From Candidatus Tantalella remota (GTDB lineage: Bacteria; Omnitrophota; Gorgyraeia; Tantalellales; Tantalellaceae): DNA of 64,000 bases. Of this stretch, positions 42,001 to 48,000 are shown piece after piece. Location: the NCBI GenBank assembly GCA_030765685.1, contig JAVCCB010000050.1:11735-75734 (forward strand), in the 5' to 3' direction. Position numbers: made by a program. Each line of letters starts with the position of its first letter. Position 1 is the stretch's first letter.

Positions 42001-45000
42001 GGCGCCTGAACATTAGAGCAGTGGAACAATAGACCGCATTGTCGCATTTGGGTTACGTAATGTTCTAATGCTCCAATGCTCCAATGCTCTGTTAAATAAA
42101 AAACCGACCAGTTGGTCGGCTTTTTATTTAACTGGTGCGGGCGAGAGGACTTGAACCTCCAAGGGGTTGCCCCCACATGGACCTGAACCATGCGCGTCTG
42201 CCATTCCGCCACGCCCGCACTATTTCACTTGTTGACAATCTCAGAAGAGAATTATACTATAAATAACTTGTATCGTCAAAATCATTATACATTATGATCC
42301 CTTTGAGTGGGGGGAATTGACGTGAAGCGGTCTAAAACAGAACCGTTGTTAACCATAACTTATTGTTATATAATAGTATAGGAACATGGCGCATAACAAA
42401 ACAGTCATTAGCAACCGTCAGGCGGCAAGGGATTATTATCTTGAAAAACCCCTTGAAGCCGGACTGCAGTTAAAAGGGAATGAAGTAAAATCCCTTCGTA
42501 ACGGGAACGCGAACCTTAAAGGCAGTTTTGTAAGCATAACTAAAGGCGAAGTTTTCATCTATAATATGCACATAACGCCTTATAAGTTTTCCCGGGATGA
42601 TGTCGATCCTGTAAGGCCGAGAAAACTTTTGCTTCACAGCGCGCAGGTAAAACATCTTGAGGTAGAGTCGTCCCAAAAGGGTTATGCCATAATTCCGACA
42701 AAGATATATTTTCATCGGGGGTACGCTAAGGTAGAGATAGCCCTGGGGCGCGGTAAGAAAATGCACGACAAACGCGTATCGCTAAAGGAAAAACAGGCAA
42801 AACGGGAGATGGACAGAGCCCTGAGCCATAAAAATAAATGATAGGTCGCAGAGTTTTGTATTTAGTATTTAGCAAGCAGCTCTTTGAAATTAGGCATAAA
42901 GAGAAAAAATCGAAAATTGTTACAAGGTCCGCCTTCGCCGATTTATTTATGTGTTATTTGGCTACGGCGGACGAATTTGGCTTGACTGTTTCAGTTCGTT
43001 TTGCTCCTGAAACAGCAGTCTCATTCGGGGGGTGACAGGCCTCGACATGGCTTTGTAGCCTTGGAGCAGCATGCAGAGGGTTCAGGTGGCCTCTATAAAA
43101 ACCTGAAAAACAAATAAACGCAGACTACAATCCAGTAGCTGAAGCTGAGTCTATCTTGGCTTCAGACGCGTTAAATGTTTCAGCTTTAGCTGGAACTGGT
43201 TCCTTAGTAAGCGCCTTGGCGTACTAAACGAACCCAACTAACAAGGACTCCTGGAGGGATTTCTCCTAACTTCAGGTGTATTAGGGGGATGCTCCCGAAA
43301 ATGTCTCGTTTATCAGGCACTTCGGGAAAAGATCAATGGTAGACTAAGCATGTAGATACTCTTTGGTTAGGGTTCATGGACCCGGGTTCGAATCCCGGCA
43401 CCTCCACCATATGAAAAACAATGAAAGCCGATTCCCATCACGGGGTCGGCTTTTTGCGTTAAAACCCTGTAAAATCAGGGGTCGTAGAACAACTGGCAAG
43501 CACTGGTATCGGCTGTTATTAACTGTCGTCTTTTGCAATATTATTCAATTGAACTTGGTGGAAACTAGGTGGAATTATCATTTAACCGTTATGGCATTAA
43601 TTTGTCGTAGCGGTTTTTTTATTTATAGAGGAGGTTGTTATGACTGGAAAGTTCAAATTTTATAATCGCAAAGCTGGGTATGGATTGATAGATGGCGAGG
43701 ATGGACAGGTCTACTTTGCAGGCTGGCGATCTATAACTCAAGATTCGAAGTGTGCTGTGTTTCCAATTACCGGAACAAAATGTGAATTTAATCCAGAAGT
43801 AGCTACACCAAAAGGAAAATATCTTAATGCTTCAAAGGTGAAGCTTGTATTTCCCGACACGTTAACGAGTGAGGTTAAAAATGAAAACTATAAAGCAGAC
43901 CTTTTTTGAAACAGTATTTGCAGACAGCTTAAAAATACATGGTGGGTATATAGAGCTTCGAAGTTTCAACCCCAAAGTTCGGCAGTACTTTTGTACAAAT
44001 ATTTGCGATGTTCTTCAGTATACCACCAAGAACGAACTCTTCTTCGGGGTATGTCCGAGGTCCAAACGAAATGGCACTGCTACATCGATAAAATATCTTA
44101 CTACCTTCTGGATTGACGTAGATGATCTGACTATTCCTCTAGAAGATAGAATAAATGCCGTTCCTTTACCACCTTCTATTGTGGTTTCAAGTGGACATGG
44201 TTTCCATGTTTATTGGCTACTAAGTGATCCTGTTCAGGTAGATTCCAGAGTAGCAGGCATACTCAAGGGACTGCAAGTCGCAACTGGAAGCGATCCCAAA
44301 AGCACGGATATACCCCGAATTCTAAGAGTTCCCGGAACTTTTAACTTAAAGTGTCCTGTGAACCCAAAAAAATGTGAAATACAATTCCTGTCGCCTGCAA
44401 GAAGATACGCTCTTGAAGATTTCAAAGAATTTGAGAGGGAGGTAATACGTTCTCAGGAAAAGACACCTATGTTCAATAGGGGATGTAAGGGTATTTTGCC
44501 GCCATGTGCTAAAAAAATTCTAAATTCCACTATACTGCCTGGATCTCGTGCAAATATAGTATTTTCTCTTTCAAAAATGTACCGAAAAAATGGGTATTCG
44601 CAAAACGAAACGGAACAAATTCTTCTGAATTTTAATGCTAAAAATTGCAAACCCTCGATAAGGGAACATGAAATTAGGGCAACTGTAAGATCTTCTTATC
44701 AACACTTATATGGATCTTATGGGTGTGAAGATGTTCTTGCTAGTTATTGTGTTCCCTACTGTTCTGTCCGCAATTCGAGGAGGTGGAAATGAATATCGAT
44801 ATGCAAGCTATATTAGAGGGGGCTGAACAAAATATGGAAAGTCTACAACAGAAAAAAATAAAGCCACCTGAAGGGGGGTTCCCGATGGATGCTGTTCCGA
44901 AGGGCTTTTTTAGGGACTACATTGATTATTACAAAACTCTTACAGAAGCAAGCGACATATTTCACTTTGCTGCTGTGTTGAGTGCAGTTAGTACGGTTTT

Positions 45001-48000
45001 GGGTAAAGATACCTTTATCGAATGGGGGGCAAATAGAATATATCCAAACTTTTACTTGCTTGTTATCGGGGAGTCAGGAATAAGTCGGAAATCAACCGCT
45101 ATCGGCGAAGCTGAAAAACTGCTACATAGGATAAATCCAGACTATAAAATGTATGACTCGTTTAGTACTGAGGCATTGCTGGAAGCACTTGAAATTAATC
45201 CTACGAGGTTTATATTCTTTGATGAGTTCAAACAGCTTACGGATTTAGAAGGAAAGTCTTATGGGAAGGGACTCATCTCATTTTTAACGCGAGCGTGGGC
45301 TTGTCCTGAAAACATATCCGTAGGATTCAAGAACATTCCGGTAGAAAAACGAAACATTACAGGGATATATCTGACACTCTTAAGTGCAACAACGATGGAT
45401 TGGTTCGCCATCAATAAATCAGATATAACAGGGGGGTTCCTTGGGAGATTTTTGCCTATCCTGTCTGGTGGAGAAAAACGACTTATCCCCAGACCACCAA
45501 GAAAAAATGAATTAAAAATTAATGGTTTTGTTAAAACCTTGGCTGAGCTCTCTGTGCTTTCTGGGGAGGTAACAATGTCTGATGATGCAGGACATTATTA
45601 TGATCACATTTATTGTGAAGACCGAAAGGAATTGAATCAGTTTTCTGATGGGGAGCTTTTGAAACCATTTTTTTCACGATTAGGTGCAAATATATTAAAA
45701 ATGGCGATGGTATTCCAGCTTGTTAAAGATGGGAGTTTTTGTATAAATAAAGACACGATGGTTGAAGCTGTGACTTGTTTGCATTATATAAAGGAGTGCT
45801 ATGTAGATTTGGTTGTGAATAAAGTAGTCTTTAGCAAGGAAATGGGTCTCGAAAAAAAGATTATTGAGATTGTGAAAAAAGATCCGGGTATAAAACACCG
45901 AGAACTCGCGCCCCGACTGCATACGCCAGCAAAGGAGTATAGACCAGCAATAGAAAGTCTTATTGATAAGGGTTTTTTAAGGTACGAAGAAGATAAGGGA
46001 TATTATTGCGGATTAGCAAATGTTAGCTGAATATTAGCACATGGTGATAACACTGTAAGTTCTTTATGTATAGATATATATATGAAAAAACATATATATG
46101 TTAGCAAGTTAGCTTAAATGGAAGCATTTTGTCAGTAGAACCTTCACCTTAAGGCAAAATCTGGGGCTGGGGCGAGCATAGCTGATAACAATGATAACAT
46201 TCGAAAAAGATGATTTAACTTATATCCTGTGAAGGAGTTAGAAGTTAGCAGTTAACACAAAAATCAGATAACAATTATCGATTAAGTAAAGTGGATAGGG
46301 ACCAAAGTGAGATTTTTTGGAAAGAACGGCAATAATTAAGGGCGGTGGGATGTGAGTAATAAAAACAAGATGACGCCACTGAAAGCAATTAGAGCGTATT
46401 GTAAACAATGCGCAGGAAGGCCGAAGGAAGTGAGGCTATGTCAGGTAGAGGAGTGCCCACTATTCGAGTACAAAATGGGGAAAAACTTTGCCCGAAAGGG
46501 TGTAGGACCTGGCAGAGTAATAAAAAAAACGATTTCTAACGATAAAAAGAACGACTCAGCAAAGGATTTCATGCACAAGAATGATTATGAGGGTAGACAC
46601 ATGGCTTATACGACTTTGCCAGTTAGAGGGGCAATTAAAGAGCAATTACCGATAGGGAGCATCAGGGTGATAAAGAAGGGAAAAATAGACATTGAAGAGG
46701 TAGGGGACGGAGTGGTCATAAAGATTACCAATGACAAGACAGGAGAATAAAGTGATCGAGTATAAACAATTGCTAGACGAGGAGTAAATGCTATGACGGT
46801 AGAATACGAACCAATCTATGTAAAGAAGCACCCAGGTATTCCAATCCCTCCGGTACCGAATACGGGGCAGATAAGACACTTAAAAGATTTAGGTCCGTTA
46901 AGGCGGCTCAGGTATTCTAATGAACCAGATTTTATAAACCCGGAGAAGGTACAAAAGCCGGGCACAGTTTTAGTAGATGAGCTAGAGTATTACATTGATA
47001 AGTATAGATCTACAGGAGACATATATAGCATACATTCAACAATGAGAGTACTTAGTAGATTGATCTTGAGAATGCTACAGCAAGAGATAAGAAGGTATAA
47101 AACATTAAATCAGGGTGATATTCCAGACTTGTATAATGCATCCTATGTTTGCTTGCATCAAGCAATGAAAGCATTTGATATATCTAAATCATCCCTCCAC
47201 AGTTTTCCTAGATTTTTGCAAGGCTATATCAAGAAGGAAGTAGGGAGAAAAGTTAGGTGGGAAGTACGGCATATATCTAGTGGTTTGACAGGAGAAATAA
47301 TGTGTCCGGAGGAGGCAGCTGGGGTAGCAACGTATAGAGAGCAAAGTGCTATTATGAAGAAGATTGATGTACAAGATGCAATGAGAGAGTTAGTAGAAGA
47401 AGGAAAAGTAAAAGAAGAGAGTATGACAATGTTTAAGCTGAAGTATCTGAGGAACTATACATACCAAGAAATAGCAGATATGTTTTGTTATTCGCATACA
47501 TTAGCAAGAGAGAGAATAAGAGCAGTAGTAAGGCTTATGAAGGTTAAATTAGCAAAATATGGTTCAGAATGACAGAAAAAAACAAAAATAATTATTTTAT
47601 TCTCCCCAGTTTTATCATCTTAGAGTTATTTATACAACATGGGAGAACATGATTTCAGAAAAAACCGTAATTTTGTTTTAACTTTCAAGGAGCTGATTTA
47701 AGGGTTGTTTAGGAAGAAATGTTAAAAAAAGTGATGTAAATGTTCAGGAGGATAAGAAAACCCAAAAATAATTATTATATCCTCCCCACTTTTTCCGTTT
47801 CAGAGTTATTTATACATTATGGGAGAACATAATAAACACAAAGAACTGTAATTTTAATCTGGCATTTTGAAGTAGTGCATTTATGAGTATTCGAAGGAAA
47901 TTAAGGAGGTTTTTATGGAACAGAGTATTGGGCAGTTGATAAATATGATTGAAGTTATATTCATAACTTCACAGTACAGAGGCGATCTTTTCAATGTTTT

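What the first reader, a model, noticed from the sequence alone, without database searches (positions are those of the whole stretch)
43640..46330. Island replication module: CSD-like gene, AEP Prim-Pol, P-loop protein and iteron-like repeat field
The Prim-Pol has all three AEP motifs (hhhDhD, sGxGxHxYw, R.PG..N.K). It is followed, with start/stop overlap, by a protein with a Walker-A-like GESGISRKST and a C-terminal wHTH. Downstream is a 300-bp AT-rich spacer full of GTTAGC and GATAACA reiterations and alternating TATATATATG runs. This arrangement is typical of a self-contained replication origin and initiator, suggesting the island can replicate autonomously (integrative plasmid, or phage-satellite-like).
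Basis: partly seen in the sequence, partly recalled or inferred. Interest (0 to 1): 0.55.

Follow-up and report, generated by a model that had tools for sequence, protein, structure and literature searches.

The report
Mobile-element replication genes with adjacent origin
A low-GC island next to the tmRNA gene of an uncultivated Omnitrophota bacterium carries a primase, a helicase with a DNA-binding tail, and next to them a repeat-studded, easily melted DNA stretch that looks like their replication origin; this is an ordinary kind of mobile-element replicon, but in a lineage and helicase family where no origin has been described.

Summary
Window 43640-46351 holds three overlapping genes followed by a non-coding spacer.

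- **Genes:** a divergent cold-shock-like gene; an archaeo-eukaryotic primase (AEP) with a PriCT-1 domain and all catalytic motifs intact; and a DUF3987 ATPase whose model is an MCM-like AAA+ core plus a C-terminal winged helix.
- **Spacer (321 nt):** it carries nine same-strand GWTARC hexamers (no more than 3 per 251 nt anywhere else in the window). It also contains the least stable 40-nt duplex of the whole 64 kb.
- **Relatives:** seven independent elements with helicases 33-40% identical have their own repeats at the same position. In six of them the least stable 40-mer of the locus lies 109-135 nt after the helicase stop. This is not seen in 76 distant phage relatives.
- **Circular relative:** one relative is a roughly 10-kb contig that appears circular and carries an integrase.

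The best reading is a SaPI-like replicon: a primase, a self-loading helicase-initiator, and an iteron origin with an unwinding element directly downstream of the helicase gene. It sits in a low-GC island that begins at ssrA (Candidatus Tantalella remota).

Replication itself is untested. The island's far end and any integrase lie outside the window. Nothing supports the phage-satellite reading. I file it as a new member of a known kind, of moderate interest.

The parts
43028..43409 (+). tmRNA gene (ssrA). The island's left junction lies just after it. smpB is upstream at 42386-42841.
   Evidence: ARAGORN. Rfam RF00023 at 167 bits, full length. GC drops from about 0.48 to about 0.38 from here to the window end.
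43640..43909 (+). 89-aa divergent cold-shock-domain-like (OB-fold) protein and first gene of the module. Possibly a single-strand DNA-binding accessory protein (inferred).
   Evidence: PDB 2kcm_A E=0.0013 over residues 1-64. Pfam CSD E=0.015. CspE E=7e-4. All are below the curated cut-offs. No homologue was found in the related loci.
43869..44792 (+). Archaeo-eukaryotic primase with a PriCT-1 helical domain. The ORF opens at GTG 43869; the likely start is ATG 43881.
   Evidence: Pfam RepB_primase and PriCT_1. Motif residues D83/D85, H113, D142 and R153..K161 are conserved. The model matches S-2L PrimPol 6zp9 (E=4e-9) and RepB' 3h20 (E=2e-8). The motifs align with those of S-2L PrimPol.
44789..46030 (+). 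DUF3987 AAA+ (MCM-like) helicase with a C-terminal winged helix; the proposed self-loading initiator. Its start overlaps the primase stop (ATGA).
   Evidence: Pfam DUF3987 at 60.2 bits. Walker A, E146 and R220 are conserved. The model has pLDDT 84.5. The top PDB matches are all MCM (E from 1e-8). Helicase activity of a DUF3987 protein is shown in PMC11724360.
46013..46052 (+). Left repeat cluster: TTAGC three times at 10-11 nt spacing, straddling the stop codon, followed by TGATAACA.
   Evidence: TRF period 11 at 46013-46043. Motif positions.
46063..46103 (.). Proposed DNA unwinding element. It is an alternating TA block that includes a 9-nt inverted repeat, ATATATATG-N6-CATATATAT.
   Evidence: It is the least stable duplex of the whole 64 kb at window sizes 30, 40 and 60 nt, by nearest-neighbour energies. 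Inverted repeat I2. ssDNA hairpin.
46100..46279 (+). Right repeat clusters: GTTAGC twice (46100, 46108); TGATAACA twice (46183, 46192); AGTTAGA/AGTTAGC/AGTTAAC (46236-46256); and the palindromic GATAACAATTATC (46267-46279).
46031..46351 (.). The whole non-coding spacer, which is the candidate origin. It must also hold the promoter and ribosome-binding site of the next gene (46352-46750).
   Evidence: No ORF and no Rfam match. Relatives have a positional equivalent.
48148..48675 (+). 175-aa protein of unknown function. It is shared with the relative L010, where it also lies just after the origin-like spacer, so it is a possible backbone gene.
   Evidence: tblastn: 40% identity over 126 aa, E=2e-26. 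No Pfam, PHROG or PADLOC match.
51219..51746 (+). Small serine recombinase (resolvase type), shared with the relative L001. Possibly a multimer-resolution or inversion function of the element (inferred).
   Evidence: Pfam Resolvase E=2.8e-34. 36% identity over 175 aa to L001 4841-5350.

Best explanation
This is the replication module of an integrated mobile element that begins just after ssrA.

**Proposed mechanism (inferred).**
1. The DUF3987 protein forms an MCM-like AAA+ ring.
2. Its C-terminal winged helix recognises the short same-strand repeats (GWTARC, i.e. GTTAGC/GATAAC/GTTAAC) that flank the TA-rich block immediately downstream of its own gene.
3. The protein melts that block (46063-46103) and loads itself as the replicative helicase.
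4. The AEP/PriCT-1 primase is translationally coupled to the helicase and probably bound to it. It makes the first primers.
5. Host polymerase does the bulk synthesis.
6. The small cold-shock-like protein may coat the exposed single strand.

**Shown here:** the gene identities, the intact motifs, the predicted folds, the repeat cluster, the extreme duplex instability, and conservation of this layout in relatives.

**Inferred:** binding of the winged helix to the repeats, melting, self-loading, and replication of the excised island.
For: **Proteins.**
- The catalytic and Walker residues are conserved.
- The primase model has an AEP fold and the helicase model has an MCM-like fold.
- The helicase model has a winged-helix C-terminus.
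- In locus L009 the same three domains (AEP, PriCT_1, DUF3987) form one 764-aa polypeptide. In L004 and L005 the helicase is instead fused to a Toprim primase. The helicase is therefore a dedicated primase partner.
- Close relatives of the AEP are mostly fused to helicase domains: AAA_25, DUF3987, D5 or DnaB.

**DNA.**
- Nine GWTARC copies lie on one strand in 251 nt, against no more than 3 anywhere else in the window.
- Three TTAGC copies sit at helical spacing.
- The spacer holds the least stable 40-mer of the 64 kb.

**Comparison with relatives.**
- All seven independent relatives (core identity 33-40%) have 215-810 nt without an ORF directly after the helicase stop.
- Each spacer has its own reiterated 8-12-mers. 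The excess over shuffles is z=2.8-4.9 in five of them and weaker in L004 and L009.
- In six of the seven, the least stable 40-mer of the whole locus lies 109-135 nt after the stop.
- Only 9 of 76 distant phage loci show this, against 3.3 expected from locus length.
- The winged-helix region is always more diverged than the ATPase core. Spacer 9-mers are shared in number (20-35) only between the more closely related elements, whose C-terminal domains are also the most alike.
- L004 is a whole contig with a unique 30-nt terminal overlap, so it appears to be circular (about 9,985 bp). It carries an integrase.

**Literature.**
- A PriCT-DUF3987 protein is a helicase that binds its AEP partner (PMC11724360).
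- SaPI Rep helicases bind 5-6-nt iterons through a C-terminal winged helix. Those iterons lie immediately downstream of rep and flank an AT-rich centre (PMC9371898; PMC7581432).
Against: - Nothing here measures replication or DNA binding.
- The repeats are short and degenerate, and the GWTARC motif was defined after seeing the region. The unbiased repeat statistics for the window are only moderate (k=8 p=0.013; k=7 z=0.7).
- All copies point the same way, whereas SaPI origins have opposed iterons on the two sides of the AT block.
- The window's spacer is not colinear with those of the relatives. The unstable block lies 32 nt after the stop instead of 109-135 nt, and the alignment shows no conserved sequence.
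- The window protein lacks the basic R/K-rich wing present in all relatives.
- The same spacer must carry the promoter of the downstream genes. AT-richness and repeats could therefore be transcriptional.
- The link between C-terminal-domain similarity and shared spacer words is confounded by overall relatedness.
- No integrase, att repeat or island end is visible, so the element could be a fixed remnant.
Confidence: 0.6

Rival explanations
1. The genes are a replication module, but the spacer is mainly a transcriptional control region: a promoter plus operator repeats for the downstream gene string starting at 46352. The true origin would lie elsewhere or be undefined.
For: - The spacer precedes a long run of same-strand genes and must contain their promoter. 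A weak sigma-70-like site lies at 46307-46336.
- AT-rich, easily melted DNA and repeated protein-binding sites are also typical of promoters.
- The repeat statistics for the window alone are moderate.
Against: - The unstable block is the extreme of the whole 64 kb, not just a typical promoter.
- That extreme recurs at the same place after the helicase gene in six of seven relatives, although the downstream genes differ between them.
- Promoter-like hits in 43000-48000 are not enriched over shuffles (11 found, 13.9 expected).
- The two roles are not mutually exclusive.
Confidence: 0.2
2. The primase-helicase pair no longer serves, or never served, element replication. It would be a repair or conflict module, as proposed for part of AgaPP's activity and for the 'TOTE' AEP systems, or a remnant in a decayed, immobile island.
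For: - AgaPP also acts in end-joining repair (PMC11724360).
- The L009 fusion matches Pfam's 'AEP-TOTE conflict system' model.
- The island carries defence cargo: GmrSD and a type I restriction-modification system.
- No integrase or att site lies in the window.
- There is a degenerate duplicated resolvase.
Against: - All three genes are intact, with coupled starts and complete catalytic motifs.
- There is no PADLOC match for either protein.
- The window's AEP does not reach the AEP-TOTE model at E<=0.01.
- A conserved origin-like spacer and a circular relative are not expected for a repair-only module.
Confidence: 0.12
3. The repeat field is a chance feature of AT-rich intergenic DNA.
For: The units are only 6-8 nt long. 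The k=7 excess is z=0.7. The degenerate motif was chosen post hoc.
Against: - There are nine same-strand copies against a maximum of 3 elsewhere and a maximum of 6 in 200 shuffles.
- Only two other 320-nt windows of the 64 kb have as much repeat coverage.
- Analogous and stronger repeat fields occur at the same position in relatives.
Confidence: 0.03
4. The island is a phage satellite (PICI-like) that replicates only after induction by a helper phage.
For: The replicon layout is the one described for SaPIs. The location next to a tmRNA gene suits an integrated element.
Against: - PHROGs gave no terminase small subunit, capsid-remodelling, packaging or other phage-related match for ten island proteins or for ten proteins of two relatives.
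- The island is at least 20.6 kb within the window and is dominated by defence genes.
- No repressor-type gene was identified.
Confidence: 0.05

Closest known systems
SaPI pri-rep-ori replicon of Staphylococcus aureus pathogenicity islands (Ubeda et al. 2007 and 2012, as summarised in PMC9371898 and PMC7581432)
   Same: - A primase gene lies directly upstream of, or fused to, an AAA+ helicase-initiator.
- The helicase has a C-terminal winged helix.
- The origin lies immediately downstream of the helicase ORF.
- That origin is made of 5-6-nt iterons on both sides of an AT-rich centre.
- The whole module sits in an integrated island.
   Different: - The helicase family differs. This one is DUF3987; one search states that SaPIbov1 Rep is related to the DUF927 helicase Cch and that SaPI5 Rep carries a Primase_Cterm domain.
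- No sequence homology to SaPI Rep was tested or seen.
- All repeats here point one way, whereas SaPI iterons are opposed across the AT block.
- There are no packaging or helper-interference genes.
- The host is Omnitrophota.
AgaPP / AgaPH (AEP plus PriCT-DUF3987 helicase) of a Seonamhaeicola integrated element (PMC11724360)
   Same: - An AEP primase is followed by a DUF3987 ATPase with a small C-terminal domain.
- The pair sits on an integrated low-GC element next to a tRNA-type gene, together with defence cargo.
- That study showed helicase activity and a primase-helicase interaction for its pair.
   Different: - There, PriCT is on the helicase; here it is on the primase.
- The AgaPP AEP belongs to the BT4734-like family, with Lys in motif II; here motif II has His.
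- That paper describes no origin or iterons.
PrimPol-PV1 supergroup proteins with AEP-PriCT-ATPase-winged-helix architecture (PrimQH and All3500 families; Kazlauskas et al. 2018, PMC5862659)
   Same: The same domain series, including DUF3987 as the ATPase and a terminal winged helix that the authors suggest recognises the origin. These proteins are encoded in elements integrated at tRNA or tmRNA genes.
   Different: Here the series is split into two overlapping genes. I did not assign the window's AEP to one of that paper's named families. The paper defines no origins.
SCCmec Cch/Cch2 helicase operons with a putative origin downstream (PMC7581432)
   Same: A self-loading-type helicase binds direct repeats in the intergenic region just after its own gene, through its C-terminal domain, and is partnered with a primase.
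   Different: The helicase families differ (DUF927; D5-like). The primase is a polymerase-A-type CCPol-MP rather than an AEP. Only three iterons are present.
IncQ plasmid RSF1010 (RepB' primase, RepA helicase, RepC initiator, iteron oriV)
   Same: The window's primase matches Pfam RepB_primase and the RepB' structure 3h20, including the helical bundle. Both systems have an origin with iterons plus an AT-rich segment.
   Different: - There is no separate RepC-like initiator.
- The helicase is AAA+/MCM-like, not RecA-type RepA.
- Motif II has His, not the Gln typical of the RepB' family.
- No ssiA/ssiB-type sites were identified.

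Membership tests
Archaeo-eukaryotic primase (AEP) superfamily | Motif I: acidic DxD after a hydrophobic strand | tested here: met
   FWIDVDD. D83 and D85 are invariant in 6 close and 51 broader relatives. They align with the acidic pair of S-2L PrimPol.
Archaeo-eukaryotic primase (AEP) superfamily | Motif II (sGxGxH) and motif III (Asp), followed by R.PG..N.K | tested here: met
   SSGHGFHVYW has H113, which is invariant in the 6-sequence alignment and the majority residue in the 51-sequence one. 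D142, R153, P155 and N159 are invariant in both.
Archaeo-eukaryotic primase (AEP) superfamily | AEP catalytic fold | tested here: met
   The model has only moderate confidence (pLDDT 65.6). Its best PDB matches are nonetheless AEPs: 6zp9 at E=4e-9 and RepB' 3h20 and 3h25 at 2e-8 and 8e-6.
Archaeo-eukaryotic primase (AEP) superfamily | Primer synthesis activity | not testable with these tools
   Needs a biochemical assay.
   At E<=0.01 only RepB_primase and PriCT_1 match the primase. Only DUF3987 and a weak HTH_24 match the second protein.
DUF3987 (PF13148) helicases | Pfam model above the gathering score | tested here: met
   60.2 bits against a cut-off of 27. NCBI also names the identical protein as DUF3987 domain-containing.
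DUF3987 (PF13148) helicases | [quoted passage not shown] | tested here: met
   GESGISRK101S102T103. DE146 is invariant in 9 sequences and at least 90% conserved in 34. R220 and R297 are invariant. Which arginine acts as the finger was not determined.
DUF3987 (PF13148) helicases | AAA+ / MCM-like (superfamily 6) fold | tested here: met
   The model has pLDDT 84.5 and pTM 0.82. The 42 best PDB matches are all MCM subunits, with E-values from 1e-8.
DUF3987 (PF13148) helicases | ATP-dependent DNA unwinding | not testable with these tools
   Shown only for AgaPH in PMC11724360.
SaPI-type replicon (pri, rep, ori) | Origin immediately 3' of the helicase gene: short iterons on both sides of an AT-rich centre | tested here: met
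   The left cluster is at 46013-46052, the TA block at 46063-46103 and the right clusters at 46100-46279.
SaPI-type replicon (pri, rep, ori) | Iterons on the two sides point in opposite directions | tested here: not met
   All nine GWTARC copies are on the + strand. Only GTTAAC and GATAACAATTATC are palindromic.
SaPI-type replicon (pri, rep, ori) | Helicase homologous to SaPI Rep proteins | not tested
   No SaPI Rep sequence was compared directly. The Pfam families differ. No SaPI Rep appears among the top 50 structural matches.
SaPI-type replicon (pri, rep, ori) | Phage-satellite functions (packaging, helper interference, helper-induced derepression) | tested here: not met
   No PHROG match of that kind for island proteins 43640-50658. 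The part of the island beyond 64000 was not seen.
Integrative element at ssrA | Integrase plus a direct repeat of the tmRNA 3' end at the far border | tested here: inconclusive
   - No repeat of the tmRNA 3' end occurs within the window.
- Only small serine recombinases are present.
- The low-GC region runs to the window end.
- The rest of the 78,845-nt contig could not be fetched.
IncQ (RSF1010) replicon | Separate iteron-binding initiator (RepC) and RecA-type RepA helicase | tested here: not met
   No such proteins appear among the island ORFs. The helicase here is AAA+.

The most novel reading that the evidence does not exclude
The DUF3987 helicases of this subfamily would be self-loading initiators whose origin always lies directly after their own gene, as element-specific iterons plus an unwinding block. 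The window's 2.7-kb cassette (43640-46351) would then be a complete, portable minimal replicon from Omnitrophota, a phylum known almost entirely from metagenome-assembled genomes (abstract listed). That would make it a starting point for a vector. The island would be an integrative plasmid that ferries defence systems.
Probability: 0.4. Interest if true: 0.5.

Novelty: new member of a known kind. Interest (0 to 1): 0.36.

Why it matters
Primase-helicase modules of this domain architecture are already catalogued, and one DUF3987 helicase has been characterised biochemically. Neither of those two papers defines an origin.

This work gives a concrete, testable origin for one DUF3987 subfamily. 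The candidate is the repeat field plus the least stable duplex directly after the gene, and it is conserved in position across eight elements.

If it functions, it extends the SaPI-type 'helicase recognises iterons next to its own gene' logic to a third AAA+ helicase family and to uncultivated Omnitrophota and their neighbours. It would also provide a small candidate replicon from such organisms. Finally, it marks the low-GC, defence-laden region after ssrA as a probably mobile, possibly episomal element.

Tried and rejected
- **DnaA boxes.** Only 2-mismatch matches occur in the spacer, at background frequency. Dropped.
- **Known RNA families in 43400-48000.** None at E<=1.
- **Repeat of the tmRNA 3' end, to find the island's right border.** Only chance 11-13-mers were found.
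- **Fetching the rest of the contig.** Exact-protein look-ups were tried for three window proteins. None is on record.
- **Representative genomes.** The single-protein query found nothing. The profile query found one 29%-identity locus, which was not analysed further.
- **Annotated plasmids and phages.** No plasmid match. Phage matches are only 21-26% identical.
- **PADLOC.** No match for the replication proteins.
- **PHROGs on neighbours of relatives L001 and L004.** No matches.
- **Sequence search of PDB.** No hit for either protein alone. The profile search gave only a sub-threshold S-2L PrimPol hit.
- **MAFFT alignment of the eight spacers.** The seven relatives share a layout. The window's spacer shows no conserved sequence block with them.
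- **Second repeat cluster.** A P4-like 'crr' cluster elsewhere in the island was looked for and not found.
- **ssDNA hairpin in the TA block.** Only marginally better than shuffles (z=-1.9), so no ssi-type priming site is claimed.

Full report
**Context**

The identical helicase protein is recorded by NCBI from a metagenome-assembled genome of Candidatus Tantalella remota, phylum Omnitrophota. In the window, smpB (42386-42841) is followed by a full-length tmRNA gene at 43028-43409. From there to the window end, G+C falls from about 0.48-0.50 to 0.33-0.41, and the large ORFs listed there (70 aa or more) nearly all lie on the + strand.

This is the classic picture of an island inserted next to ssrA. 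The finding lies at its left edge. The right edge is not in the window:
- No repeat of the tmRNA 3' end occurs downstream.
- An ORF runs off the window end.
- The rest of the contig could not be retrieved.

**The genes**

Three genes are packed head to tail.

*(i) 43640-43909, 89 aa.* This is only faintly cold-shock-like. The best match is PDB 2kcm_A at E=0.0013 over residues 1-64. The Pfam CSD and NCBIfam CspE matches are far below their cut-offs. 'CSD-like' is acceptable as a description, not as a family assignment.

*(ii) 43869-44792.* The probable start is ATG 43881, behind a GAGG; NCBI's product is 303 aa. Residue numbers below refer to the 307-aa ORF.
- It matches Pfam RepB_primase and PriCT_1 above their cut-offs.
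- An exhaustive search finds 8,362 cluster representatives at E<=1e-3.
- In 51 of the best representatives D83, D85, D142, R153, P155 and N159 are invariant, and H113 is the majority residue. H113 is invariant among the six closest sequences.
- The structure model has only moderate confidence (pLDDT 65.6). Its best PDB matches are still the cyanophage S-2L PrimPol AEP domain and RSF1010 RepB'.
- A profile alignment puts the three motifs opposite those of S-2L PrimPol.
The suggested Pfam families (PF09250, D5_N, Primase_C) are not.

*(iii) 44789-46030.* Its start overlaps the primase stop as ATGA.
- It matches DUF3987 at 60.2 bits.
- K101-S102-T103 of the Walker A motif and R220 are invariant in 34 sequences. 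E146 is invariant in 9 and at least 90% conserved in 34.
- The model is good (pLDDT 84.5, pTM 0.82).
- Its 42 best PDB matches are all MCM subunits.
- Residues 350-409 form three helices and a beta-hairpin, i.e. a winged helix. Pfam HTH_24 matches this stretch weakly.

**The two enzymes are one functional unit**

- In relative L009 the AEP, PriCT_1 and DUF3987 domains are one 764-aa protein.
- In L004 and L005 the same helicase subfamily is fused to a Toprim primase instead.
- The AEP's own closest relatives are mostly fused to AAA_25, DUF3987, D5-type or DnaB-type helicase domains.
- This matches the catalogued AEP-PriCT-ATPase-winged-helix architecture of the PrimPol-PV1 supergroup. Its authors listed DUF3987 as a predicted helicase and suggested that the terminal winged helix recognises the origin (PMC5862659).
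- It also matches the biochemical demonstration that a PriCT-DUF3987 protein is a helicase that binds its AEP partner (PMC11724360).

**The spacer**

46031-46351 is non-coding, 321 nt long and 34% G+C.
- TTAGC occurs three times at 10-11-nt spacing across the stop codon.
- Merged as GWTARC, there are nine copies, all on the + strand, in 251 nt. No other 251-nt stretch on either strand has more than three, and 200 local-composition shuffles never exceeded six. I chose this motif after seeing the region, so the figure overstates significance.
- The unbiased measure is 8-mer direct-repeat coverage: 70 nt against 21.5 +/- 17.5 in shuffles (p=0.013). Only two of the 197 other 320-nt windows reach that value. 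At k=7 the excess is weak.
- Independently of the repeats, 46063-46103 is the single least stable duplex of the entire 64 kb at window sizes 30, 40 and 60 nt.

**Relatives**

The helicase has no close relatives. The best are 34-38% identical and all come from metagenomes. Nothing was found in annotated plasmids, and annotated phages reach only 21-26%. Seven independent loci with DNA were usable: L001, L004, L005, L008, L009, L010 and L012.
- All have 215-810 nt without an ORF directly after the helicase stop.
- All have reiterated words of their own. Examples are AATAATTAAC and GCTAA-TATTC in L001 and L005, AAATTCGG in L004, and GTGAATTTAAT and GTAAATTTGTTAATTT in L008, L010 and L012.
- The repeat excess is z=2.8-4.9 in five loci and weaker in L004 and L009.
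- In six of the seven, the least stable 40-mer of the whole fetched locus lies 109-135 nt after the stop. In L001 it ranks second. Locus lengths predict well under one such case by chance.
- As a control, among 76 distant (21-29% identical) phage-borne DUF3987 loci only nine show it, against 3.3 expected. The feature is therefore specific to this subfamily and is not produced by the method.
- The winged-helix region is always more diverged than the ATPase core. Spacer 9-mers are shared in number only between the more closely related elements. This fits co-evolving protein-site pairs but is confounded by overall relatedness.
- The window's spacer contains the same kinds of parts but is not colinear with the others. 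Its unstable block lies 32 nt after the stop, and there is no conserved sequence block. The window protein also lacks the basic wing shared by the relatives.

**What kind of element**

- L001 is an element of about 8.4 kb that splits a dprA gene. It has a large serine recombinase at its far end and the helicase near its near end.
- L004 is a whole 10,015-nt contig whose first and last 30 nt are identical and unique. It carries a tyrosine integrase and excisionase-type HTH genes. To my knowledge a 30-nt overlap is what a k=31 assembler leaves on a circular molecule, so this relative probably exists as a circle of about 9,985 bp.
- The window shares two further genes with relatives: a small serine recombinase (51219-51746; 36% to L001) and a 175-aa protein (48148-48675; 40% to L010, also just after the spacer there).
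- No phage structural, packaging or satellite-type protein was detected in the island or in two relatives.
- 'Integrative plasmid-like element' therefore fits better than 'phage satellite'.

**Mechanism and comparison**

The best-documented analogue is the SaPI replicon. There a primase gene is followed by an AAA+ Rep helicase, whose C-terminal winged helix binds 5-6-nt iterons immediately downstream of rep on both sides of an AT-rich centre. Rep self-loads without a loader (PMC9371898; PMC7581432).

The window reproduces that layout with a different helicase family. It departs on one feature: all its repeats point one way.

I therefore propose that it works like a SaPI replicon, with about 0.6 confidence for the origin assignment and much higher confidence for the gene functions. 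I do not file it as a SaPI or PICI. Neither of the two papers I read on DUF3987-type modules defines an origin.

The main rival is that the spacer is chiefly a promoter/operator region, and the two roles can coexist. The other rivals are a repair, conflict or remnant role, chance, and a satellite lifestyle. All are weighed in the rival-explanations section.

**Verdict**

This is a new member of a known kind of replicon. Its modest added value is a testable origin for DUF3987 helicases and a candidate minimal replicon from Omnitrophota.

Noticed in passing
window 51334-51746 and 52491-52903: A direct repeat of about 400 nt (78% identity over 300 nt). The C-terminal ~135 aa of the small serine recombinase (51219-51746) recur in ORF 52355-52903. 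In that ORF the catalytic N-terminus is replaced by an HTH_17 (excisionase-type) domain. This could be a chimeric or degenerate resolvase, or the seam between two tandem elements.
   Followed up: partly
window 47562-47653 and 47742-47833: Two 92-nt direct repeats (80% identical, 180 nt apart) lie in the gap after the sigma-like gene. Each carries a minus-strand promoter-like hexamer pair. There is no Rfam match. Function unknown; possibly small RNAs or a control or partition site.
   Followed up: partly
window 43552-43615: Upstream of the first module gene there is a tandem AACTNGGTGGA repeated twice. It is followed by a 13-pair hairpin with a T run. This could be an operator, a terminator or a recombination site at the island's left end.
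   Followed up: no
window 53025-64000: Defence cargo: GmrSD (a strong PADLOC HEC-06/Orf5 match) and a type I restriction-modification system with two hsdM paralogues, hsdS and hsdR. It is followed by a long ORF from about 62.6 kb that runs off the window end and was not analysed.
   Followed up: partly
window 46793-47572: A 259-aa protein with only sub-threshold similarity to sigma-70/ECF factors (TIGR02937 at 28 bits against a cut-off of 42.9; PHROG sigma factor E=7e-5). It is a possible element-encoded transcription factor two genes after the origin-like spacer.
   Followed up: partly
L004 1-10015 (Logan contig SRR12486993_22662): The whole contig has an exact, unique 30-nt terminal overlap, so it is probably a circular element of about 9,985 bp. 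All large ORFs but two overlapping ones are on one strand. It carries a Toprim-DUF3987 fusion, an origin-like spacer, HTH_17 and MerR genes, and a tyrosine integrase.
   Followed up: partly
L001 1755-10165 (JGI Ga0209777_10007513): An element of about 8.4 kb splits a dprA gene. It has the DUF3987 helicase and spacer at one end and a large serine recombinase at the other. No primase gene was recognised in it.
   Followed up: partly
L009 1310-4930: A single 764-aa AEP-TOTE + PriCT_1 + DUF3987 protein is followed, after the spacer, by an HTH-WYL-WCX regulator. WYL regulators often control defence or mobile-element genes.
   Followed up: no
window 36657-36697 and 36935-36975: Two nearly identical 41-nt AT-rich sequences (ATAATTAGTATTTAGTATTCAG[C/T]ATTTAGTATATAGTAAAA) lie 278 nt apart in the host part of the window. 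They rank among the least stable duplexes of the window.
   Followed up: no
window 43028-43409: ARAGORN reports an unusually short tmRNA tag peptide, 'ALAY*', although the Rfam match is full length. The tag call may be wrong for this lineage.
   Followed up: no
window 46352-46750; L001 4049-4465; L005 6299-6715: In the window and in two relatives, the first gene after the spacer encodes a small (132-138 aa) protein with a Cys-rich N-terminus. The window has CxxC...CxxxxC; the relatives have C-x9-C-x9/10-C-xx-H. There is no detectable sequence similarity between the window protein and the L001 one.
   Followed up: partly
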